Assembly (NCBI GenBank): GCA_963791815.1
Contig: CAWBTT010000004.1
Location: forward strand, 130,215 to 194,214
DNA length: 64,000 nucleotides
Source of the DNA: an uncultured Candidatus Micrarchaeota archaeon
GTDB taxonomy: Archaea; Micrarchaeota; Micrarchaeia; Anstonellales; Bilamarchaeaceae
Direction of reading: 5' to 3'
Shown: positions 1,597 to 52,278 of the stretch, piece after piece
How positions within the stretch are numbered: the stretch's first letter is position 1
Layout: each line of letters opens with the position of its first letter
The notes under the pieces: model-generated
What the model was told of the DNA's origin: nothing
The model's input: only the letters and a program-made list of their open reading frames with translations
The model's database searches: none
Translations under genes and position numbers: made by a program

Positions 1597-1732
1597 ATAG
1601 TGGTAAATCTGGGCTAGTATAAAAGGGTTTGGGGGCCGGAATTGTGGGAGAATGTGTGAATAAAGGAGGGTTTATAAAGGTTTACACGTATAAATTCATA
1701 TAGCAACAACCTTGAGAGATGGTGAAAAAATT

Positions 1733-2416
1733 ATGGCAGAAATAGCTAAAGCAAAAGAAGAGAAGAAAGATGATGTTCGTACGGGTGGAGATGAGAAGAC
1801 TTCTGGTAGGAAGACACTCATGTCCAGATTTAGAAGGATGAAGGGACTTGTCGCAGGACTTGCGCTCGTAACCGGCATGTCACTCGCAGCAGCACAGGGA
1901 TGCGGCTCAGATGATAATGGAGTAGTTCCTTTGCCAGATGCCAGCCTTGATGCAGGCCCAGATTCTGATACTAACACTGATGGCGGAGATGGAGGAGGCC
2001 CAACAGACGCAGGACCTGACACAGACAGTGGTCCAGACGTTGACGCAGGCGACTTGGACTCTGGCCTTGATGGTGGAGAAACTGATTCAGGCACTGGTGA
2101 TGGAGGTTCTGACGCAGGACCAGCAACATGTTCAGGCGCAACAACTGGCGGTGTATTAGGAACACCATTCTATCCAGGAATTCCAGTAACAGTAGGCGGA
2201 TATGCAATTACTGTAACCGGTGAATCTTCAGACGGAGTTTATGTAGACATTGACTGCGGCTCTGACAGCGCATCTGTAGCAGTTGGCTTTAACTGCCCAG
2301 AGCAGACTAACGTTACAATCCCAGTCACAGCAGATGGAATGGAGATTAGGATTTGGAATGCAAGCAGCAGCTCATTCGTAGCAAACATGAATGTAACTGT
2401 TGCAGTTTCACCTTAG
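1733..2416 (+). CDS. secreted or lipid-anchored Asp/Gly/Pro-rich protein
   Basis: RFRRMKGLVAGLALVTGMSLAAAQGC is a basic n-region, hydrophobic core and lipobox-like Cys. It is followed by a D/G/P/T low-complexity linker and a C-terminal beta-rich domain. The ORF opens at TTG 1712; ATG 1733 or ATG 1820 are more likely starts. Confidence 0.5.
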   Translation: MAEIAKAKEEKKDDVRTGGDEKTSGRKTLMSRFRRMKGLVAGLALVTGMSLAAAQGCGSDDNGVVPLPDASLDAGPDSDTNTDGGDGGGPTDAGPDTDSGPDVDAGDLDSGLDGGETDSGTGDGGSDAGPATCSGATTGGVLGTPFYPGIPVTVGGYAITVTGESSDGVYVDIDCGSDSASVAVGFNCPEQTNVTIPVTADGMEIRIWNASSSSFVANMNVTVAVSP

Positions 2417-4506: not shown

Positions 4507-6594
4507 CTAGGAGTACTCCCAGCAGTCAGGTTCAAGTATGCTGAATGGAAGCGAGCAGCTGTGCGATGAATCGCCATCAACATACGCGTATATGGTTCCA
4601 GACTGGTATGGCTCCCCGGTGATATTGTAGTATGTTCCTGAGTCTGTTCCTCCCGAGACCCCCACATAGCCTGAGGCCGACCAGGTCACGTTTGCACATG
4701 GCTGATCAGCGTCCGGCCCGCAGTTGATGTTGACCCATCCGAATGCACCAGGATAAGCGCTGAATGCCCCATCCCCGATGGTACACCATTCGCTTGAGCC
4801 ATCGTCGTCATCATCGTCATCAGAGCCGTTGTCATCGCCTCCGTCGCCTATTTCAATCGGCGCAAGTGCGATTGCTCCAAGAATCGGGTCGTCTGCAGGG
4901 TTGTTCCAGTAGGCATAGCCAAGGAGGTTCCCTGTGCTGTTTGCGCCTGCTGTGAATGTTGTACCGTCAGTGCTTGAGTTGCCTGTCGAGCCGAGAAGGC
5001 CGTCTATGTTGTCATAGTCAGCATCATCCGGAGTGGACGGGTTTCCATCTTCGAAACAGTTGAGTTCGAAATATTCAGACTCGCCAGTTTCCATCGAAGC
5101 GCTTGGCGGGACGAACTCGCACTCATAGTGAATTGGAGTTGTCACAGAAACATCCGAAAGGCAGTGCGCTATTCCTGACTCGTAGTTCATCGTCCCGGTT
5201 GTGCCTGGAGATGAGGTTGGATAGGCAATTGCGTGCGTATTGTCCCTCTCGATGAATCCGCCTGAGATTGCGTCCCAGTACCAGTTGTTTCCAACACATG
5301 ATATTGGGTCTCCTGCAAGGTCCTCGCAAGCGACCTCGAACTCCGCTACTTCGAGTGTTCCAAGGTTAAGTGAGCTTGGGTCGATTTCGCATGTGATTGC
5401 ACCAGTAAGCGAAACTGAGTCACTGCACGATGAGGCGCCGCCGCATGCAGATGAGACTGTTGAGGCTGAGAAAGATAGTACTGTTCCGCCGGATGCTCCG
5501 GGGTTTCTCTGGACAAGAACGTATAGGTCCTTGTTTCCTCCTGGACCGATAGATTCACCGAATCCGTTGGAGCTTGGACAGTCTGAAGGCAGGAATCCCA
5601 GAGTAGTACTGCAAAGTGAGACTGGAAGCGGGTCAACATCATAGTCAAGGTTTGAGCCTGTGACGCCATTGATGGTGATGTGGTCTCCGCTGTTATGCTC
5701 TCTGACGATGACCATCATTAGGTCTTCATCAATTAATGATTTTTTGGCAGTCACTGAAACCTCGTTGAAGTTGCAGCTTCCACCTGCATCCTGGACTGTA
5801 AGTGATATCGTGTCAGTAGCAATTGACGGGCCTATTAAAGGCTGATTATCTGTGAAGTAATATAGCCTGAACCAGAGTGAGCTTGTTTTCTGAAGCGGGT
5901 TCTTTGCCAAAGCAGCAATACAATCGACATCCTGGAGCCTTGTTTTTACCTGGTATGAGCCAGAAGAACTCACTGTGAATGATGGCGAGGGAATCGAAGG
6001 CATGGCCGAGCTTCCGCCAGGAACAACGCTACCTCCACCAAGGACCTGATAGGTTCCTTTACAGAACACATTGCCCTCACCTCTGCGGTTGGCAAAGGTT
6101 CCGCTCAAGTTATGATAAGTCACTGGCTGGTAATGAAACGTTGCCAAATCATCATACCTTGATGTGTCCTGTGTCAATAGATTGCCATCACCAAATGTAT
6201 TATGATCAGTGTACTGCGACGATGTAATCCATTTGATATTCCTGTTAGTATTTGTAGTTGAATAACTGATAAATGTCGGACATCCACCTGTCGGACACTC
6301 TGGGAATAAGGAATCGATATCCAAACTTGATACTGCCCATTTGGAGTTCACTGACGGGTTGACATTGAGCGTTGCGCCACTGCAGATGACATCCCCGGTC
6401 TGGAGATTACTCGGATTTCCGCTAACGACATCGCCTGAACTGGATGCGCTCAAAGTGAAGTCAGTAGTGAACTGCATGTTGGTGTTGAAGTGATAAGGCT
6501 CACCAACATAGTTCTGGAAATTTCCAGGGACACTAGTAGCGAACGCAAATGCGCCAAAAAAAATCAAGATTGAAAAGAGTGTTTTGTACATCAT
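4507..6594 (-). CDS. secreted Cys-rich Ser/Thr/Gly/Asn/Asp-rich surface protein (orphan)
   Basis: Canonical signal peptide MMYKTLFSILIFFGAFAFATS, preceded by GAGGT 4 nt upstream of ATG 6594. Repeated Cys-bracketed beta-like modules and a poly-Asp tract (DDDDDDD). The ORF opens further upstream and overlaps the stop of gene 6602..8578. Confidence 0.6.
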   Translation of the reverse strand: MMYKTLFSILIFFGAFAFATSVPGNFQNYVGEPYHFNTNMQFTTDFTLSASSSGDVVSGNPSNLQTGDVICSGATLNVNPSVNSKWAVSSLDIDSLFPECPTGGCPTFISYSTTNTNRNIKWITSSQYTDHNTFGDGNLLTQDTSRYDDLATFHYQPVTYHNLSGTFANRRGEGNVFCKGTYQVLGGGSVVPGGSSAMPSIPSPSFTVSSSGSYQVKTRLQDVDCIAALAKNPLQKTSSLWFRLYYFTDNQPLIGPSIATDTISLTVQDAGGSCNFNEVSVTAKKSLIDEDLMMVIVREHNSGDHITINGVTGSNLDYDVDPLPVSLCSTTLGFLPSDCPSSNGFGESIGPGGNKDLYVLVQRNPGASGGTVLSFSASTVSSACGGASSCSDSVSLTGAITCEIDPSSLNLGTLEVAEFEVACEDLAGDPISCVGNNWYWDAISGGFIERDNTHAIAYPTSSPGTTGTMNYESGIAHCLSDVSVTTPIHYECEFVPPSASMETGESEYFELNCFEDGNPSTPDDADYDNIDGLLGSTGNSSTDGTTFTAGANSTGNLLGYAYWNNPADDPILGAIALAPIEIGDGGDDNGSDDDDDDDGSSEWCTIGDGAFSAYPGAFGWVNINCGPDADQPCANVTWSASGYVGVSGGTDSGTYYNITGEPYQSGTIYAYVDGDSSHSCSLPFSILEPDCWEYS

Positions 6595-6601
6595 AAAAAC
6601 C

Positions 6602-8578
6602 TCATTCATCCTCAGTTCTTCTCGGGGTAGCCCTTCGAACTGAACCCTCGGTTGGCGATGGCCTGAAGAACTCTCCAATGTTGAACTGAAGGTTCAGTCC
6701 ACCGAATGGAGTTCCTGGAAGCCTGTCGACTTCCTCTCCGCCGACCTCGCCAAGGTATCCTCCGCGAAGGTCCACCTGGAACATTCTGCGGTATGAGTAG
6801 CCAAGTCCGAGATAGCCCTCAAATGTGTGGACCGTGTTCCCGAAGTTGTAATCATACCTAAGGCCAGGGCCCGCAAAGAAGCGGTGCTGGCCTTCCTCAC
6901 CAGCATAAACTGAAAGGTTGAGCGGTCTAATGTCCCCGCCTACCCTGTGCTGCCTGAGGAAGTATGAGTACTGTGGCGTGATTGTTGACTGGAGTCTTAC
7001 ACGGTTCCCTTCCATCCAGTTGCCCTCCATTGTTATGTAGGCAAGGGGATTCATGAGTACTCCGGTTGTGTCTCCTCCTGGTGCCTGCTCAAGCGTTGGA
7101 ACCACGCCAAGACCGACCCTTGAGAGCCTGACTATTCCGCGGTTTCCTTCTTGGCCTGGGAATCTGACTTCAACGCTTGTCAAACCAAGCATCGCACCGG
7201 AATCTCCGACTTCAAGCGTTTCGGTTGAGCCGTCTGTCATTGCAACTTGCCCTGACATGCTCCACTCCTGATGCGGAATCACTGTTGCGCCAATCACGAT
7301 TTCCATTGGTACTGCCCAGCTCTCTCCGCCGACACCTGTACCGATTGCAATTTCTGGCCTCAAACCAACTGAATGGCCGGTGCCAGAAAGCCTTGTCCTT
7401 CCGACGGTTCTAAGTTCCTGAGTCTGCGGGTCGACCTGAAGCTGCTGGAGCTGTCCGCTCATTGCAAGGTATTCATAGTACAATCCAAGTGAAGTCCAGA
7501 TGAACCTCGGCTCAAAGCCGCCATGCCGTGTTCCTCTCATATACTCCTGGAACGCCTGCATGTTCTGGTCGAACTCGTATCGGACCGTTACTCCTGCTCT
7601 GAAAATCGCGACTGCCCTCTGGTTAACTGAAATGACATAGAGGTTGTTCAGCGACTGGAAAATACTGTTTAGGGTTGACTCACCAGCAAGTGACTGAAGA
7701 CCGCCTGAGAGGTCTCCTGACTGCAATTTTCTCATCGCATCCTGGAACCCTGGCCTCTGCCAGATTTCTCTCTCAGATGGAATCGCGCTCAGCGCGTTGA
7801 AAAGCGCTGTCGCAGCCGTCCTCAGTGCTGCTGCATCATTTGGATGGTTTGCAAGTACTGCGTAACCATTTGCAATTGCGTTGACACCTGCCTGTGCTGC
7901 TGCCTGATCCCCAAAAATCGCGCTCATCTCAAGACCCGGAGTCGCGTTGATTGCAACGACTGATTCCTGGCTGCCACGGCTCAGCAGTGTAATGTTACCA
8001 AGGTCATGCATTGGCACTTCAATAATTGGAAGCGCGGTTGCCCTTGCCGCTTCGTCAACTTCCCTTGGGCCTGTCTGGGCGTCTGTTGAGACACCTTCAG
8101 TCACGCCAAGAAGAGCTGTAAGCATAGCAAGATGAGAAGCGAATTCGCTGTATCCCTCTTCGTCAGCTGATGCCCCTCTGCTAATCCTCTGGAGCATTGT
8201 CCTGAATGCGGTTGCATTGTCTCCAAGAGCTGCTGCATCCTGCGGCTGAAGTTCCTGAAGCCTCTGCAGTGAAGCAACAAGTGCCCTCTGGGCATAGCCA
8301 AGTGCGCCTTCGCGTCCTTCGCCTTCTCCAAGCCTCACGATTGCCTGATCATAAACCCTCCTCATAGGGTCGCTTTCAGCCGGCCGCCCACCAAGAAGAA
8401 CCTGGTGAATCTGCGCGATTCTGAGCGAGTTGTTCACCGAAGCTCTCGCTGTCGGTGCCCTTGACGGATGGGTAGGCCTGTCTGTCCTACCTGCAATAAT
8501 GTCCAAAAATCCTACTAACTGGTCTGCTGAATAGAGACCCTGTGATTCAGTCGGTGTTTCCCGTTGCGCCTGTGCCAT
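6602..8578 (-). CDS. orphan 658-aa protein: helical N-terminal half, beta-strand-rich porin-like C-terminal half
   Basis: Long ORF with GGGGTGA 6 nt upstream of the ATG. Only one Lys in 658 residues. The C-terminal ~300 aa are alternating amphipathic Gly/aromatic-rich strands ending in GGLNLQFNIGEFF. No family recognised. Confidence 0.6.
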   Translation of the reverse strand: MAQAQRETPTESQGLYSADQLVGFLDIIAGRTDRPTHPSRAPTARASVNNSLRIAQIHQVLLGGRPAESDPMRRVYDQAIVRLGEGEGREGALGYAQRALVASLQRLQELQPQDAAALGDNATAFRTMLQRISRGASADEEGYSEFASHLAMLTALLGVTEGVSTDAQTGPREVDEAARATALPIIEVPMHDLGNITLLSRGSQESVVAINATPGLEMSAIFGDQAAAQAGVNAIANGYAVLANHPNDAAALRTAATALFNALSAIPSEREIWQRPGFQDAMRKLQSGDLSGGLQSLAGESTLNSIFQSLNNLYVISVNQRAVAIFRAGVTVRYEFDQNMQAFQEYMRGTRHGGFEPRFIWTSLGLYYEYLAMSGQLQQLQVDPQTQELRTVGRTRLSGTGHSVGLRPEIAIGTGVGGESWAVPMEIVIGATVIPHQEWSMSGQVAMTDGSTETLEVGDSGAMLGLTSVEVRFPGQEGNRGIVRLSRVGLGVVPTLEQAPGGDTTGVLMNPLAYITMEGNWMEGNRVRLQSTITPQYSYFLRQHRVGGDIRPLNLSVYAGEEGQHRFFAGPGLRYDYNFGNTVHTFEGYLGLGYSYRRMFQVDLRGGYLGEVGGEEVDRLPGTPFGGLNLQFNIGEFFRPSPTEGSVRRATPRRTEDE

Positions 8579-8584
8579 TTTTAG

Positions 8585-8740
8585 TCACCCCAAAGTGAAT
8601 GCTAATGGTATAGGAGCCTCGAACTTTAAAATATGCTCCGGTGACGCAACAAGAGCCGCCAGACCAAATGCCGCTGCCGCGCAAACCTTCTTTGCCCGCG
8701 TGACAATCCCATTTCGTTTTTCATTGTGTCTGAGTTTCAC
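8585..8740 (-). CDS. candidate 51-aa membrane or secreted peptide
   Basis: GTG start 7 nt downstream of a perfect AGGAGGT. Translation: (M)KLRHNEKRNGIVTRAKKVCAAAAFGLAALVASPEHILKFEAPIPLAFTLG. The stop lies 6 nt before the ATG of gene 6602..8578. Below the ORF-track size cutoff. Confidence 0.35.
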   Translation of the reverse strand: MKLRHNEKRNGIVTRAKKVCAAAAFGLAALVASPEHILKFEAPIPLAFTLG

Positions 8741-8786
8741 TTGTCATACCTCCTTCTGTCCTTGAGCGAATTGCCCAAGCTGTTTT

Positions 8787-8806
8787 ACAGGGGAGAAATC
8801 CCCTGT
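8787..8806 (-). promoter_or_regulatory. perfect 8-bp stem / 4-nt loop hairpin in the intercistronic spacer
   Basis: acagggga-gaaa-tcccctgt lies 36 nt downstream of the stop of the 1335-aa gene and upstream of the small ORF. Function unknown. Confidence 0.3.
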
Positions 8807-8841
8807 TCCATCCACCCTTGTTTTAGTATAAAAAAGAAATA

Positions 8842-11800
8842 TTATCTGGAACGACGAGCCGCTGCTGTCGGTGAAGTGCTCCTTGGTGATACGATTACCA
8901 CCGGGGTGCTCTCTCCGACCACGTAGGTCCAGCTCTGGTTGTGATCTGTCGGAGCGCAGACTGATTCCATATTTCTGCGGAATCGTTCGTCACGTACAGG
9001 CTCGAATCCACTGGTGCCCTCTATCCTGAAAAGCACATCAGAAGGCCTAACACGCTGTCGACCGTCCATAACAGGAACCCACTCGCGTCCGCTTGTTGGG
9101 CTTTCTCCTGAAGGCCTAACACGAACGACTGCCCTGGGGATTACTGTCCCATCAGTCAAGGTTACATTGTTAATAACCTGGCCGATGTGAGAACGTCTCC
9201 TGGCTTCTATAGTACTTGTCGGGTCATACTGCGGATTCCTAAGATACTGGGTTATCTGCCCATCCTGGTCGCGCCTTCCGAGGTTCTGATATACGAACCA
9301 GTAGTAGGTCAGGTTGACTGTCCTCTGGTGCTGTCTCTGATACCTCCTGTGGAAGTCTGCGAAGCTCATTGTGTCTCCGTCCGCTTCACGGACCATGACC
9401 TGCTCTGCAGTGAATCTTACCCTGCTTGATGAACCCCTAGAGTATCTCTCCTGCTCAATGCTTGTCCTTGGAACGTAGAACGAAAGCTGCGCAAGGTCGT
9501 CTGTAAGCCTTCCCTGCTGCTCTGGGTCTGGGAATCGGCTGAGGATGCTATCATCAAGGCTTGCGATTGCGAGTTCTGCTGTTGCAATTGCCAATCTTGG
9601 GTTCATGCGCCCAGTGAAAAGGTCGCTGCCCCTGTCTCTGTGAAGCGCTCCGCGCAGTGTTGTAAGCAAACGCTCAGCCTCAACTGCCCGAGTTACATAC
9701 ATTACTCTTGGGTCGCGGCTTCTTGCAAGGTCCCTTCTTGCGAACCTTGTTCCGCTTGCGACTGCGATTTCACCGTCCAATCTTGTCCTGAGTTCTCCAA
9801 GCCTTGTATCTAATATAGATATAAGCTGGCCGTTTGCTGATGCAAGTGTCTCAGTTGGCGTTGCAGTTGCGTATCCCTGTGAAATCTGCCACATCCTGCT
9901 CCGGAGTGGTGCTGGATCAATTGTCCTAAGCCACTGCGGGGTCTGCCCATTGCCCCGGAGAATCGCAAGTCTGTAAAGCTCGATATAAAGGCTTCCATAC
10001 TGGGCAATCCTCATATCCTCCTGAGGATTGCTTCCAAGGTTGGCATCGCCGCCAGTATTTGGCTCAGGAACGATGTGCTGGTCAACTTCTGAAACAGAAG
10101 TTCTTCCCCTTCCTGTGCTTCCCCTGAGTATCGGATGTCCACCTCTCTGTATTGGTTCGGTGGGATTACGCCCGACTGAAGGCTGCAGTAATGCGAATGC
10201 CCTTCTTGATGCGGCGTCCCTTGACCCGTAAGCTGAAACCGCGAATCTGGGTGTGCCTCTTACTCCAACAAGAAGTCTGAGGAACCTCTCTTCTGCCAGT
10301 TGTGCGGCCTGGGCTCTTTCAGCATCAGTTGGATTGGCAATATCAGCAACAGTAACTTCCTGTGATGAAGGCGATGCGTATGCCTGGTTTGTCGCTATTG
10401 TTGCAGGCGATTCAAGAACCCTGAAAGTAGCAGGCGCAAGAGCGTTGATTGCTGCATCTGCTATTGCTCCTGATATGTTGGGGTGGAAACCTGAATCGAC
10501 TTGCGGTGATGAGAAGCACCATACGAATGCCTGCTGTGCCTGCTGAATCATTGCATCGGCACGGCCAAGCCTTTCCTGTGAAAGGTTTGCCCGAATTGAG
10601 CTGGTTGACCTCCAAAGCTGAGCCTCACGGATTGAAGCGAGACTGAGTGCCATGTAATATAATGTATCAGACATCTGCGGAACCTGCGCCACGTCCACAG
10701 TTCCCTGAGAAGCTGTAATCCAGGCATTTGCCGCCTGAATCATCGGGTCTGTTGCTGGAAGTCCTGAACCAGTTACAACTTCCTGCAGAGAACTCCTTGC
10801 AAGAGTGAGCCGGGCAGTGCCTTGAAGCTCTGCCTCACTAAGAGGCTGTGGCGGATATGCTGCCATATCAAGCGCGAGCCGGTACCTTGCATACTCGTAG
10901 CGGATGTTGGGCCTGAGCCTCCTCATTGTCGCCATTGTCCTTATTGAAGATGAAACTGCACTAGGCGCTGCCGGGGCGAGTCTTGAAACTTCCAGGTAAA
11001 GCTTGTGCAAAACATCCTCATACCTGAAATCCCGGTTTCTCATAAGGGCAGGCAAAAGTTCAGTTTCTGCACGGCGCACCTGGGCATCTGTAATTGGAAC
11101 CCCGGTATGCCTAAGATATGCCCTTGCCATACTGCGCCTTGTGCCTGCAGTATAAAGTCTGTAAGGAATGAAATCTGAATCAAGCAATGTTGAGACTGCA
11201 TTTGCATATGCGGTCCTAAGCTGGATTCTTCTTGGAGTATCAAGGCCTGCTATGTTCTGCCCCCTTGTGAATTCCCAAAGGTCCACAACTGCGCGGATGA
11301 CCTGTTCTTCTGATACAACTGACTCATAAAGTTCATTGACAAGATGGTATGAGAGAGAACCTCCCCCCTGCGCACCCTGAAGAACCTGCCTTGCACGCGT
11401 AAGCCTTTCTTCCATTGAGCTTCTGATGTCTTCCCTTCCGGTACGGACACGGCGAAGAACTCTTGTGCCATCAGCATTTCTTACAGGTACATAATCATAG
11501 GTTCCCCTGCTCTGGCCATCAGCCCTTGCCGCTGCCGCAACCTCTGCTCTTGTTGGAAGGTGACTTCCATCAATTGCCTGGAGAGATGCCTGCGCGATTG
11601 GAACAACAAACTGCTCGAGCCTCTGGCGCATGAGCTGCTGCTCCTGGGTAAATATTGTATTGGCTGCTGTGAGTTTTTCCCTGGCAAGAGTTTCGTTGCC
11701 CGCTCGAATAGCATCGCGTGCCTCACCAATTCTTGTAACCATGCGTGATGCTGGACTTTCACCAAGAAGAAGCGCATCGTTAAGCCTTCCGATAAGGTTG

Positions 11801-12849
11801 TTTGCAAGATTTCTCCTTTCCTGTGAAACTGACTGGTCTGCTGCGACCGCCTGAAGGTCTGTAAGTATTGAGGTTACCCTCTGCGAAAGAGGATGTGCCG
11901 CTGCAGTGTCAACACCAGGAATATCGGTCATCCTTGCCTGTGCTGCTCTTGTCTGGGACCGTGCGAGTTCACTTGAAACTACACGTTCTGCTGCTGTGAC
12001 AAGCCTTGCAAGCTGGCGTTCCCTTGGGCCGCCGGTCCTGTTAAGTTCTGCATTCAATCTGGTAAGAGCCTGCTCAGCGCTCCTTCGAACGCCAGCATTT
12101 CTCCCATAATTAGAAATTACTTCAAGATTGTCGCGAAGCTGTCCGTGCTGCGGCGCTGCTGCAACTGCGGGTTCTGGCTGCGCTTCAACTCTCGCTGGAA
12201 CGGTTTCCCTTGCTGATGGTCTTTCAGTAGGTGCTGCAACTGGGGCAGGTGCTACTGTTGGCTGCGGGGTTGCCTGCGCGAGAACTGGGCCGACAGACGA
12301 ATCAGCCGATGGGGTGCCGAGCGCTGCCATGACCCTCTGCTCAAGAAGTTGAAGGCCTGCTGCATCGAGTGCCGCATCCCTTCCTCTTCCGAGCCATGTA
12401 TTCATTGAGCGGAATTTGTCTCTGTCTGTTGAACCTGAAATTGGAATGACTGCCTGGCCGCCGTTTGATGGGCGAAGCCTCTGGTCAAGTTGAACCAAAG
12501 CAGCAAGAAGTCTTCTCACGTTCGCATCAGTATAAGTAACCTGCACTGGTGTGATTCCCGCTTCCTGCATCTGGGTGAATGTACCCCGAATTGCAGTGAA
12601 ATGAGTAGTGAGATTTTCATAAGCCTGTTGTACTGCCCTAACATCTACCCGTGACTCTTGCGCATGCGCCTCTTTCATAGCCGGTTCTCCCATAATAGCA
12701 CCCATAAAACTCGCGACAAAAATTGCGCGATGGAAGAACCTCTTAACGGCTCCCCCAGTACCTTTTCTGTTAGTAGAATTTAAAGGTTCTCTATGGCGGC
12801 GATTCTCGTCTTTCTGTTCAGCAGAATAATTTAGTTTTGGACCTCCCAT
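8842..12849 (-). CDS. orphan 1335-aa Ala/Arg/Gln/Leu-rich, predominantly helical protein with N-terminal hydrophobic anchor
   Basis: Uninterrupted 4-kb ORF. KRFFHRAIFVASFMGAIMGEPAMKEAHA resembles a signal or anchor segment. A Pro/Ala linker follows (TPQPTVAPAPVAAPTERP). Eight Lys in total, five of them in the first 59 residues. No family recognised. Confidence 0.6.
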   Translation of the reverse strand: MGGPKLNYSAEQKDENRRHREPLNSTNRKGTGGAVKRFFHRAIFVASFMGAIMGEPAMKEAHAQESRVDVRAVQQAYENLTTHFTAIRGTFTQMQEAGITPVQVTYTDANVRRLLAALVQLDQRLRPSNGGQAVIPISGSTDRDKFRSMNTWLGRGRDAALDAAGLQLLEQRVMAALGTPSADSSVGPVLAQATPQPTVAPAPVAAPTERPSARETVPARVEAQPEPAVAAAPQHGQLRDNLEVISNYGRNAGVRRSAEQALTRLNAELNRTGGPRERQLARLVTAAERVVSSELARSQTRAAQARMTDIPGVDTAAAHPLSQRVTSILTDLQAVAADQSVSQERRNLANNLIGRLNDALLLGESPASRMVTRIGEARDAIRAGNETLAREKLTAANTIFTQEQQLMRQRLEQFVVPIAQASLQAIDGSHLPTRAEVAAAARADGQSRGTYDYVPVRNADGTRVLRRVRTGREDIRSSMEERLTRARQVLQGAQGGGSLSYHLVNELYESVVSEEQVIRAVVDLWEFTRGQNIAGLDTPRRIQLRTAYANAVSTLLDSDFIPYRLYTAGTRRSMARAYLRHTGVPITDAQVRRAETELLPALMRNRDFRYEDVLHKLYLEVSRLAPAAPSAVSSSIRTMATMRRLRPNIRYEYARYRLALDMAAYPPQPLSEAELQGTARLTLARSSLQEVVTGSGLPATDPMIQAANAWITASQGTVDVAQVPQMSDTLYYMALSLASIREAQLWRSTSSIRANLSQERLGRADAMIQQAQQAFVWCFSSPQVDSGFHPNISGAIADAAINALAPATFRVLESPATIATNQAYASPSSQEVTVADIANPTDAERAQAAQLAEERFLRLLVGVRGTPRFAVSAYGSRDAASRRAFALLQPSVGRNPTEPIQRGGHPILRGSTGRGRTSVSEVDQHIVPEPNTGGDANLGSNPQEDMRIAQYGSLYIELYRLAILRGNGQTPQWLRTIDPAPLRSRMWQISQGYATATPTETLASANGQLISILDTRLGELRTRLDGEIAVASGTRFARRDLARSRDPRVMYVTRAVEAERLLTTLRGALHRDRGSDLFTGRMNPRLAIATAELAIASLDDSILSRFPDPEQQGRLTDDLAQLSFYVPRTSIEQERYSRGSSSRVRFTAEQVMVREADGDTMSFADFHRRYQRQHQRTVNLTYYWFVYQNLGRRDQDGQITQYLRNPQYDPTSTIEARRRSHIGQVINNVTLTDGTVIPRAVVRVRPSGESPTSGREWVPVMDGRQRVRPSDVLFRIEGTSGFEPVRDERFRRNMESVCAPTDHNQSWTYVVGESTPVVIVSPRSTSPTAAARRSR

Positions 12850-13089
12850 TTAGCCATCCTCATTTAACATTACTATATACTATTTGAAACAAATGATTTA
12901 AAAACCATTGTTTTCCACTTTTCACTATTTTTCGGATTGTTTTTATGACTGTTTCAAACACAAAAGAATGATTACTATAAAATGCCTAATAGTGTTTAAA
13001 AAAGGTGGCTTAAGAGCGGAATTGAAGGAATCCCAATAAAAAACGTATTTTACTACAGAATACAAGTGAGATTTTCTAAAAAATCAAAA

Positions 13090-13926
13090 ATGCCCAGTTT
13101 TCGTGATGCAGGAGTGAGGAAACCATTTTGCAAAGCAGTGGTATTACTTTCATTCGTCTTCTCCTGTGGGGAAGCCGCGCATGAACCCATAGGGCAAAGA
13201 CCGGTCCGGGAAGAAGCAAGGCAGGTTGAGATAGAAGATGACTGCCTGGATAGGTATTTTGATTCTGACATCTCACCACCACTTTCTTTTGGAAAGGGAC
13301 TTGGCAGGGACAGGAGGGTCCGCGAAATGCGAATGGAAGTGGAAGATTTGTATTCAAAAATGAGACGAGGTTCTGAAAGCGCCGAATATTATGCAGAGTT
13401 TTTCAGCAAAGCCAGGCACTCTAATGGAGATTTGATGTTCCCAGGTGCTGCAGATGTTATCAGTGGAAATGTTTTCCCGAATGCGAGTTCCAAAAGGTTG
13501 GCTGGAAGAAGAATGGCAAAATCAATGAGAACAACAAGATTCCCAAATGCATATGCGCTTCTAAATTCAATGCCGAAAACAGCTGTTGTGCTCGTTGACA
13601 GGGTGAATCGCCCTCGAAGCGGAATGGATGTTGAACATGCAGAAGATATCGCTGGTTTTTTCCGCGCGCTGCTTGGATTCCAAAACAGGATGGGCTCTGA
13701 GCAGGAACTCTGTGATTTCCAGCCGAACATGAGCAGAGAGCAATTGAATGAATTTGATTCATATTATTCTAATAAGATATTAAACTGGAATAATCCAGTA
13801 ACAGGAAAACGAGTTTGTACTAATTGCAAGAAGTCAATCGAAACGGGAGATTTTGAAAGATTCGGATTGACAAGGTTTCCTGACGGAATGGAAGCTGCAT
13901 TCTGCAGACAAATAGAAACAGATTAA
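13090..13926 (+). CDS. putative lipoprotein (orphan)
   Basis: KPFCKAVVLLSFVFSCGE signal with lipobox-like Cys. C-terminal CTNC...C cluster. The ORF opens at GTG 13066; ATG 13090 is preferred. Confidence 0.5.
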   Translation: MPSFRDAGVRKPFCKAVVLLSFVFSCGEAAHEPIGQRPVREEARQVEIEDDCLDRYFDSDISPPLSFGKGLGRDRRVREMRMEVEDLYSKMRRGSESAEYYAEFFSKARHSNGDLMFPGAADVISGNVFPNASSKRLAGRRMAKSMRTTRFPNAYALLNSMPKTAVVLVDRVNRPRSGMDVEHAEDIAGFFRALLGFQNRMGSEQELCDFQPNMSREQLNEFDSYYSNKILNWNNPVTGKRVCTNCKKSIETGDFERFGLTRFPDGMEAAFCRQIETD

Positions 13927-13950
13927 TATTTCACAGTATAGTTGTGGGAC

Positions 13951-14646
13951 ATGTACAGACGATATTACTATTCGGTTCCTTATCAGTCGATAAAAAAAGC
14001 AAAGAAGTTCGCAACCAGGATGAAAAAATCCTGGGGCGCCAAGGTCAGTGCAGAGAAGAGGCAACTAACTGGGGTAGTAATGAAGAAGGGAAGCCGGGCA
14101 AAGAAGGTCACAGTAGTAACAAGTTATGATTTTGAAGTGGATAATCTTAGAGAGCTTTATGATAGCGAGATGCTAAATGGCCACCTTGATGCGCGTGCTC
14201 ATAAAGTAAAGAAAAATTTCGACATTAGAAGTTTGGTTAAAAAAGATTTGAAAAAATGCCTGAAGGAAGATGAGAAGCTGGAGCTCAGTTGTCCTTTAGA
14301 AGCTATGAACATTGTCAGAAAAGCAGTCGGACTTAAGCCTTTGGCAAAGGATTTCTTTGGAAAAAGGAAGGGCATGGAAATACTCAGGGTTTTGGCAAAG
14401 AAATCAAAAATAGAGACATACAAAATTGAGAAATTGTCGACGATGAACAAAGCCATGGTCCAGATACTCAAAGTTGGGAAATACAAAAAGAAGAAAGGCA
14501 CTCTGGCCATTACTGTTGAGTTCAAGAACAAGGTAAAGTTTGTCCAGGTTTCAAAACTGATTATGGAGAAATTCAGAAACATAGAAACTATCGAGAAAAT
14601 GGATTATCCCACAGGGAAAGGAATCCTTATTGTTGCAAAATACTGA
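13951..14646 (+). CDS. Lys-rich hypothetical protein
   Basis: Open frame in an AT-rich segment. Very basic K-rich sequence with no motif recognised. The ORF opens at TTG 13942; the first ATG is at 13951. Confidence 0.4.
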   Translation: MYRRYYYSVPYQSIKKAKKFATRMKKSWGAKVSAEKRQLTGVVMKKGSRAKKVTVVTSYDFEVDNLRELYDSEMLNGHLDARAHKVKKNFDIRSLVKKDLKKCLKEDEKLELSCPLEAMNIVRKAVGLKPLAKDFFGKRKGMEILRVLAKKSKIETYKIEKLSTMNKAMVQILKVGKYKKKKGTLAITVEFKNKVKFVQVSKLIMEKFRNIETIEKMDYPTGKGILIVAKY

Positions 14647-16141: not shown

Positions 16142-16217
16142 CTTGTTCTCTGAAATTTAAGTGCTTTATGTATAACAAACATAATCATTTATAAATTGTA
16201 ACAAATAAAGTAAAGTG

Positions 16218-16955
16218 ATGCGCAAAAGAAAGAGCCTGGCTTTCAAAAGAGAAAAGCCAACTATGACAAAGAATCTTTTTTTCTCAACACTTGCCTTTGC
16301 AGCGACAATAACTTCTTGCGCGCCGGCTGTCACAGCACTCCCAAGAAGAGAGATTCAAAGGGAAACCACGATTACTGAGACAATAAGAAGAACTGAAAGA
16401 GCATGCAGAGTTGACCCAAGGAACTGGCTTAGGAAAGGGGAGAGGCTCAGGGGAACTGTGTGCAGGGACGGAAGGATTTTCGCACTGACAGAGGGCAGCC
16501 TCCTGATAGGAAGAGAGGCAACCGGAGACTTCTTTTTCAGTGACATCACACTCGAATCAAGCCATTCCAGAACAGATATGGCAGGGATACTTCGGGCAGG
16601 CCTGGTCGATTGGACAGCCTCACAAGACACTGCATATTTCCTGACAAGAGACAGGATGCTTACGCCAATCCCTGTTGGAGATATGGGAGAGCGGCTTAAC
16701 TCATATGAGATTCCAGCTGCGTACCTAAGCGGAAAGATGGAATTCCACAACGACTTTCTTTTGATTGCAGGAGCAGGAAAGATAATGGCAGTATCGTTTG
16801 ACCCGCACCTGGATTCAAGAGAGATACCATTCAGATTAAGAACAAAAACCGCAGATTTTTTCCAGCGTGAAGGAAAACTGTTTTTCGGAAATGAAAGAGA
16901 AAGAATAGAAATAATTTTTGAGAGCTCAAGGCTCTCAGATATCCGGGTTCGCTAA
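16218..16955 (+). CDS. putative lipoprotein (orphan)
   Basis: MTKNLFFSTLAFAATITSC signal with lipobox-like Cys. atttataaatt lies about 30 nt upstream of ATG 16218. Confidence 0.5.
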   Translation: MRKRKSLAFKREKPTMTKNLFFSTLAFAATITSCAPAVTALPRREIQRETTITETIRRTERACRVDPRNWLRKGERLRGTVCRDGRIFALTEGSLLIGREATGDFFFSDITLESSHSRTDMAGILRAGLVDWTASQDTAYFLTRDRMLTPIPVGDMGERLNSYEIPAAYLSGKMEFHNDFLLIAGAGKIMAVSFDPHLDSREIPFRLRTKTADFFQREGKLFFGNERERIEIIFESSRLSDIRVR

Positions 16956-17614
16956 CCGCTTGAGGGGCGTCTTCTAATAGACGCTACAGTAATAAGGTCC
17001 TCAGGCCTCTGGCCACCCAGCATGGACCTTTCCATACGGTTGTACCTGCCCACATAAGTTCTTGCAAACTGCTGACGCTGTGCTGCATTCAACTGTCTTC
17101 GGGCGCCAGTAGATGAAACTGCATAAACTCTCATTCCAGAAGCGCCTTCTACAAGAGCTTGGCGAAGTTGGCCCAATCTTGAACGTGCAAGGCCGGCAGT
17201 TCCAGTTCCGCTTCTTGCAGGCAGTTCAGTTCTGCTTACAACCTCATATGTACGAGTTCCCATAGTTACGCGGTAGGCATATGTCCTCTCAGGAGTTCTT
17301 CTTGGAACAGTTCTAATGGTTGGGCTGCGCACAGGTCCGTGGAGAAGGGTAAGATCACTAAGAATTTCCCTCCTCTGTCTTGGACGTGCGCGTCCATTTG
17401 CCATCGTAGAGGCTATCCTATTCAAATCATTGACATCCAGCCAGCTCTGATTTACAGCAACATTCTGGCCCCTTGCGAGCCTCCCTGCTAAGCCCATGAT
17501 TGTTGTGGCCTGCTGCCGGGAATACCCCCCGCTAATAAGCTGCTGCTGAATCTGCATGTTGAACTGCTGCATTGTCATTCCAGGTTGTTGTGTCCTTCTT
17601 CTTGATTGCGCCAT
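16952..17614 (-). CDS. Arg/Gln-rich lysine-free orphan protein, paralogue of 17621..18115
   Basis: GAGGTGAT Shine-Dalgarno 6 nt upstream of the ATG. No Lys in 220 aa. The core YRVTMGTRTYEVVSRTELPARSG aligns with the upstream paralogue. Confidence 0.6.
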   Translation of the reverse strand: MAQSRRRTQQPGMTMQQFNMQIQQQLISGGYSRQQATTIMGLAGRLARGQNVAVNQSWLDVNDLNRIASTMANGRARPRQRREILSDLTLLHGPVRSPTIRTVPRRTPERTYAYRVTMGTRTYEVVSRTELPARSGTGTAGLARSRLGQLRQALVEGASGMRVYAVSSTGARRQLNAAQRQQFARTYVGRYNRMERSMLGGQRPEDLITVASIRRRPSSG

Positions 17615-17620
17615 ACGAAA

Positions 17621-18115
17621 TCACCTCGAAGATGCTACTCTCACTTCTCTGCTTGGAACATACTGTCCCCCGCGGAAGGTCCGGGAAAGATAATCATCCC
17701 TAAAAATGTCAAGCCTTGCGTTTGGCGCTCGTGCATTGAAACGTTCATGGTTTCCTGGTCCGCCAATCTGCTGAACATCAGCATGTACTACTGCACCCCC
17801 AGTCTCAACAAGCTGGTTGCCAACAAGAAGTTCGTGAAGCCTTTCCCTTCCGCCCCTTGCAGGAAGCCTTTCAGGAAGAGTAACGCGGTAAGCTCTATCT
17901 CCAACACTTACACGATAAACATGCTGTTCAATTCTCCTAGGAGTAGGTCGGGTAGTTGGGCGTACTGTTCCCGCGCGCCTTCCTGCCGCCGCGCCCTGCT
18001 GAAGAAGATCCAGAACGTTCCGCAACATGTTCTTGATTTCAACCATTTCCTGCTGAAGGGATTGAAGAGTAGGTGCCTGCGTCCTTTGCCGTGGTTTACG
18101 AGCAGCTTGTGCCAT
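17621..18115 (-). CDS. Arg-rich orphan protein, paralogue of 16952..17614
   Basis: Core YRVSVGDRAYRVTLPERLPARGG is identical to its neighbour at 13 of 23 positions. N-terminus is MAQAARKPRQRTQAP. Two Lys in 164 aa. Confidence 0.6.
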   Translation of the reverse strand: MAQAARKPRQRTQAPTLQSLQQEMVEIKNMLRNVLDLLQQGAAAGRRAGTVRPTTRPTPRRIEQHVYRVSVGDRAYRVTLPERLPARGGRERLHELLVGNQLVETGGAVVHADVQQIGGPGNHERFNARAPNARLDIFRDDYLSRTFRGGQYVPSREVRVASSR

Positions 18116-18140
18116 ATATATCAGAAATACTTTGATGGCA

Positions 18141-18152
18141 AGTTTTTTTAAG
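18141..18152. promoter_or_regulatory. shared A/T block, candidate bidirectional TATA element
   Basis: agtttttttaag is centred about 27 nt upstream of purP ATG 18174 and about 31 nt upstream of the divergent ATG 18115. This suggests two leaderless transcripts. Confidence 0.3.
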
Positions 18153-51468: not shown

Positions 51469-52278
51469 CTATTCAGAGATACGCCGAATCTCCCAGCCTG
51501 CGAGTGAATTGTCACGCCAGCTGCTCTGCAACACGAATGAGCCGTGCTCAGTTTCAAATGGAACTCCTTCCATCACGCGTAGTGGAGTGTCAAGAAGAAC
51601 AATATCAACTTGCTCCACCCCAGAAAGAGGACATGGGCCAACATTAGTAACAAGAAGGTAGTGCATCTGGGTTCCTGAATCCAATTCAAGATAAAGCCCT
51701 GGAACCGCCGTCTCGTTTACCGAGATGCCGTTTGGACCAACAACATGCAGTATGAAACCATCTGCACTTTCAGAAACAGAAATCTGCGTCCCATCCCTCA
51801 TAGTGCGCCGCATCCCAGGACGGCTGTAAAAGCTGTCTGTCTCTTTGGCGAAAATCATCTCTTCTGGCCCTGGACTGACAAGGAGATATTCTTCCCCAAG
51901 GAAGGAAACTGAATATTTGCCTGGAGAGACGAACCAACCGCCTTCTGGATTAACATCCATTTGAGGCTGGAACTCTGAATCCTCAGAAATGAAAGGCGCA
52001 TCCTGCAAACAGCTCCTTTTAGTGACAATCTGCAATGCGTCGCCAGATGGGAATTCCCTTCGGAGTTCCATTGTGTCCACTTCGGTTTCAGAAGAACACC
52101 TCGCAACGGCGGGACCTTCATCCAAATCAGAACCATCCAAATCAAGATTTATCGGGGCGGTGAGATTACAGGCAGAGACAAGAGCAAGAGAAGCAACAGC
52201 CAGTTTAGCTTTTAGGAATACCCGTTTTTTTGCATCTTCCCTTACACGGCCGGATGAACATTTTGACAATAATTTCAT
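51469..52278 (-). CDS. putative lipoprotein (orphan)
   Basis: KLAVASLALVSAC signal with lipobox-like Cys, then an Asp/Glu-rich and beta-rich body. Confidence 0.5.
   Translation of the reverse strand: MKLLSKCSSGRVREDAKKRVFLKAKLAVASLALVSACNLTAPINLDLDGSDLDEGPAVARCSSETEVDTMELRREFPSGDALQIVTKRSCLQDAPFISEDSEFQPQMDVNPEGGWFVSPGKYSVSFLGEEYLLVSPGPEEMIFAKETDSFYSRPGMRRTMRDGTQISVSESADGFILHVVGPNGISVNETAVPGLYLELDSGTQMHYLLVTNVGPCPLSGVEQVDIVLLDTPLRVMEGVPFETEHGSFVLQSSWRDNSLAGWEIRRISE

What the first reader, a model, noticed from the sequence alone, without database searches (positions are those of the whole stretch)
6602..12849. Extreme lysine avoidance in the large orphan proteins
Counting directly in the translations:
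- The 658-aa protein has 1 Lys (AMRKLQ).
- The 1335-aa protein has 8 Lys, 5 of them in the first 59 residues, so 3 in about 1275 aa.
- Arg is abundant in both.
- The tandem paralogues at 16952-18115 have 0 of 220 and 2 of 164.

Neighbouring housekeeping proteins (for example RFC, Hef, uppS) are visibly Lys-rich. These genes look only moderately more G+C-rich by spot counts (32/60 at 7021-7080). Base composition alone therefore seems insufficient to explain the depletion.

Lys-free proteins are classically interpreted as evading Lys-directed modification or degradation (ubiquitin-like tagging, acylation) or Lys-specific proteases. That would fit proteins acting outside the cell or inside another cell. 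This interpretation is speculative.
Basis: partly seen in the sequence, partly recalled or inferred. Interest (0 to 1): 0.7.

Follow-up and report, generated by a model that had tools for sequence, protein, structure and literature searches.

The report
Lysine-purged exported proteins in Micrarchaeota
A conserved set of envelope proteins in a tiny symbiotic archaeon has had almost every lysine removed, mostly in favour of arginine, by natural selection and not by DNA base composition, and only in the parts that leave the cell, which points to an unidentified lysine-targeting hazard at the cell surface.

Summary
A (1335 aa) has 8 Lys/158 Arg, B (658 aa) 1/53, and the small paralogues 0/36 and 2/26, against K/(K+R) of about 0.62 in neighbouring genes (residual z -4.2 to -7.6 after regression on GC). 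GC does not explain it. Orthologues in genomes from GC 0.40 to 0.63 are equally purged. GC3 is not raised. Arg codon choice matches each genome, yet about 150 AGR codons one transition from Lys stay Arg.

The proteins are not orphans. They belong to a vertically inherited Micrarchaeota core operon, A-leader-B-C. Across about 100 B-family representatives K/(K+R) is bimodal (27 below 0.15, main mode 0.4-0.6), with about 15 independent switches and one relaxed lineage.

Lys persists in signal-peptide n-regions (0.27 in both states) but not in mature parts (0.03 vs 0.48). Several lipoproteins follow the same state. The Cys-rich operon partner C does not.

Best reading: purifying selection against any Lys on extracytoplasmic parts, imposed by a lineage-specific Lys-directed "one-hit" process (proteolysis, tagging or cross-linking). 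The agent is not identified. B has a confidently predicted alpha plus large beta-meander fold with no known relative.

The parts
8842..12849 (-). Protein A (1335 aa): exported, Arg/Ala/Gln-rich, K=8, R=158. First gene of the conserved A-leader-B-C operon.
   Evidence: Orthologues in 13 or more lineages. No Pfam, NCBIfam, PHROG or PDB hit.
12661..12849 (-). Predicted signal peptide of A (residues 1-63): basic n-region with a conserved LNSTNR motif, a 13-aa hydrophobic core and AHA|QE. Holds 5 of A's 8 Lys.
   Evidence: The consensus RxAxAQE is conserved in alignment A4. The cleavage site is inferred, not tested.
8585..8740 (-). 51-aa leader ORF with a signal-peptide-like sequence (5 Lys). In frame with B, ending in a TGA that lies inside B's Shine-Dalgarno-like GGGGTGA.
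   Evidence: The arrangement is conserved in 6 lineages. Leader and B are fused in L007, L009 and L012.
6602..8578 (-). Protein B (658 aa): K=1, R=53.
8099..8527 (-). B, N-terminal helical domain (residues 18-160).
   Evidence: AlphaFold2 with a 77-sequence alignment, mean pLDDT 90, pTM 0.70.
7652..7933 (-). B, second helical domain (residues 216-309).
6680..7642 (-). B, C-terminal domain of about 14 long antiparallel beta strands (residues 313-633), meander or barrel-like, followed by a basic tail.
   Evidence: Foldseek finds no significant match in PDB or BFVD; the weak hits are bacterial outer-membrane barrels.
4507..6609 (-). Protein C (about 700 aa): signal peptide, Ser/Thr-rich, more than 20 invariant Cys. 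Overlaps B's end by 8 nt. Not Lys-purged (mature K9/R9).
   Evidence: Serves as an internal control within the same operon.
16952..17614 (-). P220: small, very basic protein, K=0, R=36, no signal peptide.
   Evidence: (10 homologues, K=0-1).
17621..18115 (-). P164: paralogue of P220 sharing its C-terminal domain of about 110 aa. K=2, R=26.
16215..16955 (+). Y246: lipoprotein-like protein. Five of its 10 Lys are in the leader; mature K5/R28. Its K/(K+R) follows the lineage state.
13066..13926 (+). X286: lipoprotein-like protein, partly depleted (mature K10/R27).
1712..2416 (+). D: small acidic lipoprotein. All 8 Lys are in the first 44 residues and none in the mature part. The family follows the lineage state.
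   Evidence: Mature Lys counts are 0, 2, 3, 2, 3, 0 in depleted lineages and 7, 9, 8, 7, 7 in normal ones.
51469..52278 (-). Lipoprotein-like ORF: 6 Lys in the leader, 3 in the mature part (mature R=12).

Best explanation
A, B, the B' paralogues, P220, P164 and several lipoproteins of this Micrarchaeon are under strong purifying selection against lysine in the parts of the polypeptide that leave the cytoplasm.

Lys is replaced mainly by Arg, which keeps the charge, and otherwise by Ala, Thr, Gln and Ser. The selection is lineage-specific and switch-like. It has turned on or off about 15 times within the family.

The most likely cause is a Lys-directed 'one-hit' process acting outside the cytoplasmic membrane, where a single accessible epsilon-amino group is enough to lose the protein. 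My first choice is a Lys-specific endoprotease made by the host, the community or the symbiont itself. Lys-directed covalent capture or cross-linking at the symbiont-host interface is the alternative.

Shown: the depletion, its independence from GC, its restriction to mature parts, its bimodality and convergence, and its co-variation across protein families.
Inferred: export, which rests on heuristic signal peptides, and the nature of the selective agent.
For: 1. GC independence. A and B are purged (K/(K+R) 0.00-0.14) in loci of GC 0.40, 0.42, 0.47, 0.53, 0.60, 0.61, 0.62 and 0.63, whose backgrounds are 0.34-0.74. They are normal (0.42-0.55) in loci of GC 0.45-0.53.
2. Active selection. The AGR fraction of Arg codons in A+B equals the local background in every lineage, yet AAR stays near zero where background AAR:AGR is 2.5-3.6.
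3. Relaxation control. L002 is nested among depleted relatives and has regained 65 Lys in A and 18 in B, and its P164 and P220 carry more Lys too (7 and 10).
4. Compartment specificity. n-region K/(K+R) is 0.27 in both states. Mature parts are 0.03 in depleted and 0.48 in normal lineages. This also holds at family scale.
5. Bimodality with a near-zero mode and few intermediates (bimodality coefficient 0.67). Depleted members fall in about 15 separate clades. This is what all-or-nothing liability predicts.
6. The lipoprotein families Y246, D and X286 follow the same state.
7. C sits in the same operon, is exported and is stabilised by many invariant Cys, and it keeps its Lys. That fits a hazard which a compact or shielded fold can escape.
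8. The shift is specific to K->R: -5.2 and +4.0 points in B, with all other residues under 1.3.
Against: - No Lys-directed enzyme, host or habitat was identified. The agent is entirely inferred.
- In the window lineage B, P220 and P164 have no signal peptide. B has its own ribosome-binding site after the leader's stop codon, so their export is unproven.
- C and some other exported proteins are not purged, except in L017.
- Signal peptides were called with a simple hydrophobicity rule, not a trained predictor.
- Co-variation of P220 and P164 with A and B rests on a single relaxed lineage.
- All four GC-rich loci (GC 0.60 or more) are in the depleted state, so some contribution of GC history to how the state arises cannot be excluded.
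Confidence: 0.45

Rival explanations
1. Effector-type lysine avoidance. A, B and the small basic proteins are transferred into or onto the host cell, and lack Lys so that they escape Lys-linked tagging (SAMP/Urm1/ubiquitin-like) and proteasomal degradation there. This would parallel the A chains of AB toxins.
For: - The R-over-K bias matches toxin A chains, and the spared partner C parallels toxin B chains (PMC4030972).
- DPANN depend on physical contact with a host (PMC8975820).
- The SP-less, very basic P220 and P164 are purged too.
- B has a large beta-meander or barrel that could be a membrane-active module.
Against: - Lipoproteins that should stay anchored on the symbiont also follow the state.
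- No catalytic or toxin domain is detectable.
- Cytoplasmic continuity was not seen in the cultivated Micrarchaeon.
- The existence of Lys-directed degradation tagging in the unknown hosts is assumed.
Confidence: 0.15
2. Physicochemical adaptation of exported proteins to the external medium, chiefly high pH. There Lys loses its charge and Arg does not, as in secreted enzymes of alkaliphiles.
For: - The known alkaline-adaptation signature is fewer Lys and more Arg, His and Gln (PMC8153356).
- Depleted B proteins gain Arg, His and Gln and become more acidic overall (net charge -16 vs +0.7).
- Only extracytoplasmic parts are affected.
Against: - C and other exported proteins in the same genomes keep Lys.
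- Asn falls, and Glu rises in B, which is opposite to the published signature.
- A graded physicochemical pressure does not predict near-zero counts and a bimodal distribution.
- The record names that hint at habitat (a marine-labelled MAG and a Danish survey MAG) suggest no alkaline source, but no pH metadata were available.
Confidence: 0.08
3. Positive need for arginine rather than avoidance of lysine. The guanidinium group could be required for binding host lipids, glycans or nucleic acids, or for self-assembly of the A-B machine.
For: - Arg rises by about 4 points.
- P220 and P164 are 16% Arg with very few acidic residues (5% in P220).
- Arg-rich proteins are known to interact more strongly with phosphate-bearing surfaces (general knowledge).
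Against: - About two thirds of family members work with Lys at the same columns.
- Only 22% of the Lys columns become Arg in A. The rest become Ala, Thr, Gln or Ser.
- Total K+R falls rather than rises.
- Unrelated lipoproteins with hardly any basic residues also lose their few Lys.
Confidence: 0.08
4. Lysine economy. Exported proteins cannot be recycled, so an auxotrophic symbiont for which Lys is limiting removes Lys from what it exports, while the Lys in cleaved signal peptides is recovered.
For: - Cultivated Micrarchaeota lack almost all amino-acid biosynthesis (PMC8975820).
- Leaders keep Lys and mature parts do not.
Against: - C is co-transcribed, with an 8-nt overlap with B, and has no lower Lys density in depleted than in normal lineages.
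- Replacement is by Arg, a costly residue.
- Cost selection per residue is weak and should give a graded decline, not 0-1 Lys per 650 aa with bimodality.
- Expression level could not be assessed because the window has no ribosomal genes.
Confidence: 0.07
5. Mutational (GC) bias, or historical lag from a GC-rich ancestor.
For: - Gene GC correlates weakly with K/(K+R) in the window (r=-0.34).
- All four loci with GC of 0.60 or more are depleted.
Against: - The depletion is present at GC 0.40 with GC3 0.22.
- Residual z is -4 to -8 after regression.
- Arg codons have fully re-equilibrated to each genome.
- The relaxed lineage regains Lys quickly.
- The state is scattered across the tree.
Confidence: 0.02
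6. Selection at the mRNA or tRNA level: avoidance of AAA/AAG codons, for instance to allow translation when tRNA-Lys is depleted or cleaved.
For: Lys-codon-poor transcripts are known to be favoured when tRNA-Lys is cleaved in mycobacteria (my own recollection, not checked here).
Against: - The same transcripts begin with 4-6 Lys codons in their leaders.
- Both AAA and AAG are avoided.
Confidence: 0.02

Closest known systems
Arginine-over-lysine bias of the A chains of ER-translocating AB toxins (cholera, ricin, Shiga, pertussis, CDT)
   Same: - Extreme R:K ratios (15-24 Arg to 2 Lys) in one component, with normal Lys in the partner subunit of the same system (PMC4030972).
- Here A and B are purged and operon partner C is not.
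- In both, K->R keeps the charge while removing epsilon-amino groups.
   Different: - The toxins are short catalytic chains that enter eukaryotic cytosol and evade ubiquitin.
- Here the proteins are 650-1335 aa with no detectable enzyme domain, in an archaeal symbiont.
- Entry into another cell is not shown.
- The trait is switch-like among orthologues and reaches membrane-anchored lipoproteins.
Lysine deserts of ubiquitin-proteasome components and of Actinobacteria with pupylation
   Same: Long, evolutionarily maintained Lys-free stretches (719 and 374 aa here) with partial compensation by Arg (PMC10665810, PMC10169902).
   Different: - Those deserts are cytoplasmic, often in disordered regions.
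- The Actinobacteria case may be confounded by high GC, which that paper's text does not mention.
- Here the deserts cover folded domains of exported proteins in a 47% GC archaeon.
- They stop at the signal-peptide boundary and are independent of GC.
Alkaline adaptation of secreted enzymes of alkaliphilic Bacillus (M-protease, Shirai et al. 1997, as summarised in PMC8153356)
   Same: Fewer Lys and more Arg, His and Gln in proteins that work outside the cell.
   Different: - The published change is moderate and graded, and is accompanied by fewer Asp and Glu and more Asn.
- Here it is near-total and bimodal, and Asn falls.
- A co-exported operon partner is exempt.
Bacterial outer-membrane beta-barrel proteins (for the fold of B only)
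   Same: About 14 long antiparallel strands in a meander. The weak Foldseek hits are autotransporter beta-domains, TonB-dependent receptors, porins and OmpG.
   Different: - No significant match (best E 9e-3, query TM-score 0.21 or less).
- Two N-terminal helical domains.
- No C-terminal aromatic beta-signal.
- The organism is an archaeon that, according to the literature, has a single membrane plus an S-layer.

Membership tests
Lysine-desert proteins (sensu Szulc et al. 2023 / Kampmeyer et al. 2023) | Lys-free region of at least 150 aa or at least 50% of the sequence | tested here: met
   Lys-free runs of 719, 246 and 223 aa in A, and 374 and 283 aa in B. P220 has no Lys at all.
Lysine-desert proteins (sensu Szulc et al. 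2023 / Kampmeyer et al. 2023) | Desert conserved among orthologues | tested here: inconclusive
   Kept in orthologues down to about 20% identity in 8 or more lineages, but absent from about two thirds of the family. The trait is a lineage-specific state.
Lysine-desert proteins (sensu Szulc et al. 2023 / Kampmeyer et al. 2023) | Protein exposed to a Lys-directed conjugation system (ubiquitin, Pup) in its own compartment | not testable with these tools
   No such system was identified. The proteins are predicted to be extracytoplasmic.
AB-toxin A-chain type arginine-over-lysine bias | Extreme R over K in the translocated component but not in its partner | tested here: met
   A is K8/R158 and B is K1/R53, against mature C at K9/R9 in the same operon.
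AB-toxin A-chain type arginine-over-lysine bias | Catalytic toxin domain | tested here: not met
   No Pfam, NCBIfam, PHROG or PDB-sequence hit for A, B, P220 or P164. No significant Foldseek match for B.
AB-toxin A-chain type arginine-over-lysine bias | Entry into the cytosol of a target cell | not testable with these tools
   Needs localisation experiments.
Alkaline-adapted secreted proteins | Fewer Lys and more Arg | tested here: met
   B: Lys -5.2 and Arg +4.0 points. A: Lys -6.5 and Arg +4.2.
Alkaline-adapted secreted proteins | Fewer Asp and Glu, more Asn, His and Gln | tested here: not met
   Gln is up in both and His is up in B only. Asn falls in both families and Glu rises in B.
Alkaline-adapted secreted proteins | Applies to the secretome in general | tested here: not met
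   C and several other exported proteins in depleted lineages keep K about equal to R.
Alkaline-adapted secreted proteins | Alkaline habitat | not testable with these tools
   No pH metadata. An accession search in the literature found nothing.
Bacterial outer-membrane beta-barrel proteins (for B) | Significant structural similarity to a known barrel | tested here: not met
   Best Foldseek E 9e-3, query TM-score 0.21 or less, rmsd 14-24 A.
Micrarchaeota S-layer protein (PF05123 / MSTP-like) | S-layer N-terminal domain PF05123 | tested here: not met
   No Pfam hit for A, B or C at E up to 0.1. The published S-layer protein carries PF05123.
Viral or mobile-element proteins | Relatives in viral contigs or phage protein families; variable genomic context | tested here: not met
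   No PHROG hit. No relative in IMG/VR. Synteny with housekeeping genes is conserved across distant lineages.

The most novel reading that the evidence does not exclude
The switch-like, convergent purge of lysine from the host-facing proteins of Micrarchaeota records an undiscovered Lys-directed attack-and-evasion axis between archaeal symbionts and their hosts or neighbours. The agent could be a Lys-specific surface protease or a Lys-linked tagging or cross-linking system that acts on foreign proteins.

On this reading the A-B-C operon is the conserved host-interaction machine of the phylum, and B is a barrel-like beta protein of a kind not described in archaea. It would be a prokaryote-against-prokaryote counterpart of lysine avoidance in toxins and effectors.
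Probability: 0.2. Interest if true: 0.85.

Novelty: new variant of a known kind. Interest (0 to 1): 0.7.

Why it matters
Lysine avoidance is an accepted signature of proteins that must survive a Lys-directed system, but the documented cases are eukaryote-facing toxins, ubiquitin-system components and GC-rich Actinobacteria.

Here the same signature appears in an archaeal episymbiont. It is cleanly separated from GC, limited to the exported part of each polypeptide, bimodal, and has arisen or reverted about 15 times. That makes it a natural experiment. Comparing depleted and normal Micrarchaeota genomes, hosts and habitats should reveal what targets lysine at archaeal cell surfaces.

It also singles out a phylum-wide operon of unknown function, with a confidently predicted new fold, as a leading candidate for the DPANN host-contact machinery, whose molecular parts are largely unknown.

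Tried and rejected
- **GC or mutational bias:** rejected.
- **Lag from a GC-rich ancestor:** rejected, because Arg codon usage has re-equilibrated in every lineage.
- **Codon or tRNA-Lys-level avoidance:** rejected, because leaders on the same mRNAs are Lys-rich.
- **Foreign, viral or mobile origin:** rejected, given host-like Arg codon use, conserved housekeeping synteny, no PHROG hit and no IMG/VR relative.
- **S-layer protein identity:** rejected.
- **Programmed UGA readthrough joining leader and B:** considered because the in-frame TGA is conserved in six lineages. Downgraded because GGTGA 6 nt before the ATG is a ribosome-binding site and TGA is an ordinary stop.
- **A single conserved Lys as a dedicated modification site:** rejected. 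Residue 392 is Lys in only 5 of 8 depleted A proteins and residue 145 in 4 of 8.
- **Cys co-depletion as part of the trait:** rejected. Cys is low in both states.
- **GC proxy from G/A/P against F/Y/M/I/N content across the B family:** the proxy tracks locus GC poorly (rho 0.27), so the result was discarded as inconclusive.
- **Same-sample test of depleted against normal lineages:** not possible, since all retrieved samples differ.
- **Habitat tracing by accession in the literature:** nothing found.
- **Metagenome scan for more loci:** only one locus.
- **First AlphaFold model with 11 sequences:** poor (pLDDT 58) and its Foldseek hits were not used.
- **Expression estimate from codon bias:** not possible, because the window has no ribosomal protein genes.
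- **Viral-contig scan with the A alignment:** failed, as the alignment has no conserved stretch usable for the search.

Full report
**1.

| Protein | Coordinates (strand) | Length | Lys | Arg |
|---|---|---|---|---|
| A | 8842-12849 (-) | 1335 aa | 8 | 158 |
| B | 6602-8578 (-) | 658 aa | 1 | 53 |
| P220 | 16952-17614 (-) | 220 aa | 0 | 36 |
| P164 | 17621-18115 (-) | 164 aa | 2 | 26 |

Thirteen housekeeping genes of the window average 8.5% Lys and 5.2% Arg. The window includes RFC, XPD, Lhr and Hef-type helicases, GlnA, TBP, uppS and a beta-CASP nuclease.

The four genes have residual z of -7.6, -6.1, -5.2 and -4.2, with binomial p from 3e-7 to 4e-42. GC3 has no predictive value (r=0.16). Their higher GC (0.51-0.54 against 0.466) sits at codon positions 1 and 2. 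GC3 is equal or lower. Arg codon choice is the same as in housekeeping genes, with AGA+AGG at 0.68 against 0.63. So the genes are native, and amino-acid content drives their base composition.

**2. They are not orphans**

A and B have homologues only in Candidatus Micrarchaeota / Micrarchaeia. A profile search of 1.84 billion representatives finds 106 B-family clusters at 50% identity.

Gene order is conserved even where B is only about 20% identical: uppS, a purP-like gene, an NTP-transferase, then A, B (sometimes two paralogues, B' and B) and C, then a beta-CASP nuclease, FeS_assembly_P and an ACT protein. One distant member, P0079, is a natural A-B fusion, which argues that A and B act together.

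There are no relatives in phage families or viral contigs. This is a vertically inherited, phylum-specific core operon.

**3. GC does not explain the depletion; selection does**

K/(K+R) of A and B against flanking genes, by locus:

| State | Loci (GC) | A and B | Flanking background |
|---|---|---|---|
| Depleted | window (0.47), L003/L011 (0.40-0.42), L006, L008, L010 (0.60-0.63) | 0.00-0.14 | 0.34-0.74 |
| Depleted | L016 (0.61), L017 (0.53) | 0.00-0.03 | about 0.5-0.6 in L017; too few flanking genes in L016 |
| Normal | L005, L007, L009, L012 (0.45-0.53) | 0.42-0.55 | 0.55-0.59 |

In L003, A's GC3 is 0.22, and mature A is K1/R130.

In every lineage the share of Arg codons that are AGA/AGG in A+B matches the local genome: 0.66 vs 0.70 in L003, 0.70 vs 0.65 in the window, 0.39 vs 0.26 in L008. 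So Arg codons have had time to re-equilibrate. Even so, about 150 AGR codons stay Arg, although each is a single G->A transition from Lys and the background AAR:AGR ratio is 2.5-3.6.

One lineage, L002, is nested among depleted relatives and shows what happens when the constraint lapses. A has regained 65 Lys and B 18, mostly at Arg positions, and its P164 and P220 carry more Lys too.

**4. The trait is a two-state switch that has flipped many times**

Among about 100 B-family representatives, 27 have K/(K+R) below 0.15 (17 of them below 0.05). Only 4 lie between 0.15 and 0.30, and the main mode is 0.40-0.60. K+R stays at roughly 8-11% in most members. The bimodality coefficient is 0.67.

On a tree built with K and R merged into one symbol, depleted members fall in about 15 separate clades. 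The change is specific. Depleted B proteins differ from normal ones by -5.2 points Lys and +4.0 Arg, and by less than 1.3 for every other residue. In A, columns that are Lys in normal members are Arg (22%), Ala, Thr, Gln or Ser in depleted ones. No Lys is universally retained.

**5. Only the part that leaves the cytoplasm is purged**

A begins with a basic n-region, a 13-residue hydrophobic core and AHA|QE. The consensus RxAxAQE is conserved across the family. All five N-terminal Lys precede this site. B' paralogues and C also have signal peptides.

Pooling A and B proteins with such leaders:

| State | n-region K/(K+R) | Mature K/(K+R) | Fisher p |
|---|---|---|---|
| Depleted | 0.27 | 0.03 | 2e-12 |
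| Normal | 0.27 | 0.48 | 9e-3 |

The family-wide sample agrees. Because the same mRNAs start with several Lys codons, explanations based on codons or tRNA-Lys fail.

**6. The trait reaches beyond A and B but is not universal**

- The lipoprotein-like Y246 has mature K/(K+R) of 0.15, 0.28 and 0.42 in depleted lineages, against 0.55, 0.62 and 0.78 in the relaxed and normal ones.
- A family of small acidic lipoproteins (window 1712-2416) has 0-3 mature Lys in depleted lineages and 7-9 in normal ones. Its leaders carry up to 8 Lys.
- X286 and the ORF at 51469-52278 lean the same way.
- C is exported, overlaps B by 8 nt and has more than 20 invariant Cys. It keeps Lys about equal to Arg in both states, except in L017.
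- P220 and P164 are very basic, have no signal peptide, and lack Lys in nine of the ten P220 homologues found.

**7. What the proteins are**

No sequence library or PDB sequence search gives a hit. With a 77-sequence alignment, AlphaFold2 models B confidently (pLDDT 90, pTM 0.70). The model has two helical domains (residues 18-160 and 216-309) and about 14 long antiparallel strands (313-633).

Foldseek finds nothing significant in PDB or BFVD. The weak hits are bacterial outer-membrane barrels and large lipid-transfer proteins. I could not inspect coordinates, so I do not know whether the sheet closes into a barrel.

The published Micrarchaeota S-layer protein carries PF05123 and is a different protein.

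**8. Mechanism**

Shown: strong, lineage-specific purifying selection against Lys on extracytoplasmic parts of a defined set of envelope proteins.

Inferred: the cause. Near-zero counts, bimodality and fast recovery on relaxation fit a liability in which any one Lys is enough to lose the protein. Candidates are a Lys-specific endoprotease, or Lys-directed capture or cross-linking, at the cell surface or symbiont-host interface. C's exemption fits a compact, disulfide-rich and probably glycosylated protein that such an agent cannot reach.

The closest precedent is the arginine-over-lysine bias of AB-toxin A chains, which is absent from their B chains (PMC4030972). Lysine deserts of ubiquitin and pupylation systems are related (PMC10665810). 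Neither has been described for archaea in the papers I could search.

Rivals:
- **Delivery into the host and escape from ubiquitin-like tagging.** Weakened because anchored lipoproteins share the trait.
- **Alkaline adaptation (PMC8153356).** The signature matches only in part, and C is exempt.
- **Lysine economy.** C is exempt, Arg is costly, and the distribution is bimodal.
- **A positive need for Arg.** Most family members work with Lys.

**9. Limits**

- Signal peptides were called with a simple rule.
- Export of B, P220 and P164 in this lineage is unproven.
- No habitat, host or enzyme data were available.
- Co-variation of P220 and P164 rests on one relaxed lineage.
- All four GC-rich loci are depleted, so GC may make it easier to enter the state, even though it cannot maintain it.

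Noticed in passing
window 8585-8740 (-) and the junction at 8576-8591: A 51-aa ORF encodes a signal-peptide-like leader. It is in frame with B and separated from it by TGA plus two codons (...AFTLG*LKMAQAQ). The same arrangement, always with TGA and the context (A/G)GGTGA CTA AAN ATG GCA CAG, is conserved in six lineages down to about 20% B identity. In L007, L009 and L012 leader and B form one ORF. GGTGA 6 nt before the ATG looks like B's ribosome-binding site, so termination-reinitiation coupling is the simplest reading. Low-level UGA-CUA readthrough producing a signal-peptide-B fusion is not excluded.
   Followed up: partly
window 6680-7642 (-), residues 313-633 of B: A confidently predicted domain of about 14 long antiparallel beta strands (pLDDT above 90 over most of it) has no significant structural neighbour. 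The weak neighbours are bacterial outer-membrane barrels. Early cryo-EM work proposed two membranes for Micrarchaeota, and later work reinterpreted the outer layer as an S-layer. A barrel-like envelope protein conserved across the phylum deserves a look at the coordinates.
   Followed up: partly
P0079 (1717 aa, from the profile search); corresponds to window A 291-1109 plus B 217-553: A natural fusion of A-like and B-like regions in one polypeptide in a distant lineage, with normal Lys content (K/(K+R) 0.44).
   Followed up: partly
window 13942-14646 (+): A 234-aa ORF with 19.7% Lys (46 K, 12 R) and GC 0.39 sits between the Lys-poor genes X286 and A's neighbourhood. It is absent from this position in the close relative L013, so it looks like a lineage-specific AT-rich insertion.
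   Followed up: no
window 43177-44529 (-) and 52586-53920 (+): Two Fic/DOC-domain genes, each inside a local AT-rich island (GC 0.37-0.38 against 0.47). They are probably acquired elements.
   Followed up: no
window 6602-6609: B's stop and C's likely start (MNEVFMMYK...) overlap by 8 nt. The same overlap is called in L014, which suggests translational coupling of B and C.
   Followed up: no
N-termini of B (8578), P220 (17614) and P164 (18115): The three Lys-free proteins without a signal peptide all start MAQ-x-x-R (MAQAQRE, MAQSRRR, MAQAARK), and orthologues do the same. This could be a targeting signal or simply a favoured initiation context.
   Followed up: no
mature N-termini of A (after residue 63) and of B' in L003, L006, L008 and L010: The predicted signal-peptidase sites are AxA|Q[DE], so the mature proteins would start with Gln. 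If that Gln cyclises to pyroglutamate, a Lys-free mature chain would carry no primary amine at all. The Gln is also present in lineages with normal Lys.
   Followed up: no
window 17606-18151 (+): A 181-aa ORF lies antisense to P164 with unusual composition (GC3 0.66, 2% acidic residues). It is almost certainly a shadow ORF and not a gene.
   Followed up: no
window 22980-23690 (-): A 236-aa ORF with no family hit is GC-rich for the window (0.54) and Arg-biased (K11/R26), with no signal peptide. It may be a mild further member of the Lys-poor set.
   Followed up: no
L017 12368-14488 and 16646-18073: In this distant depleted lineage the purge goes further. Mature C is K1/R20, and a 475-aa lipoprotein has all six of its Lys in the leader (mature K0/R16).
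   Followed up: partly
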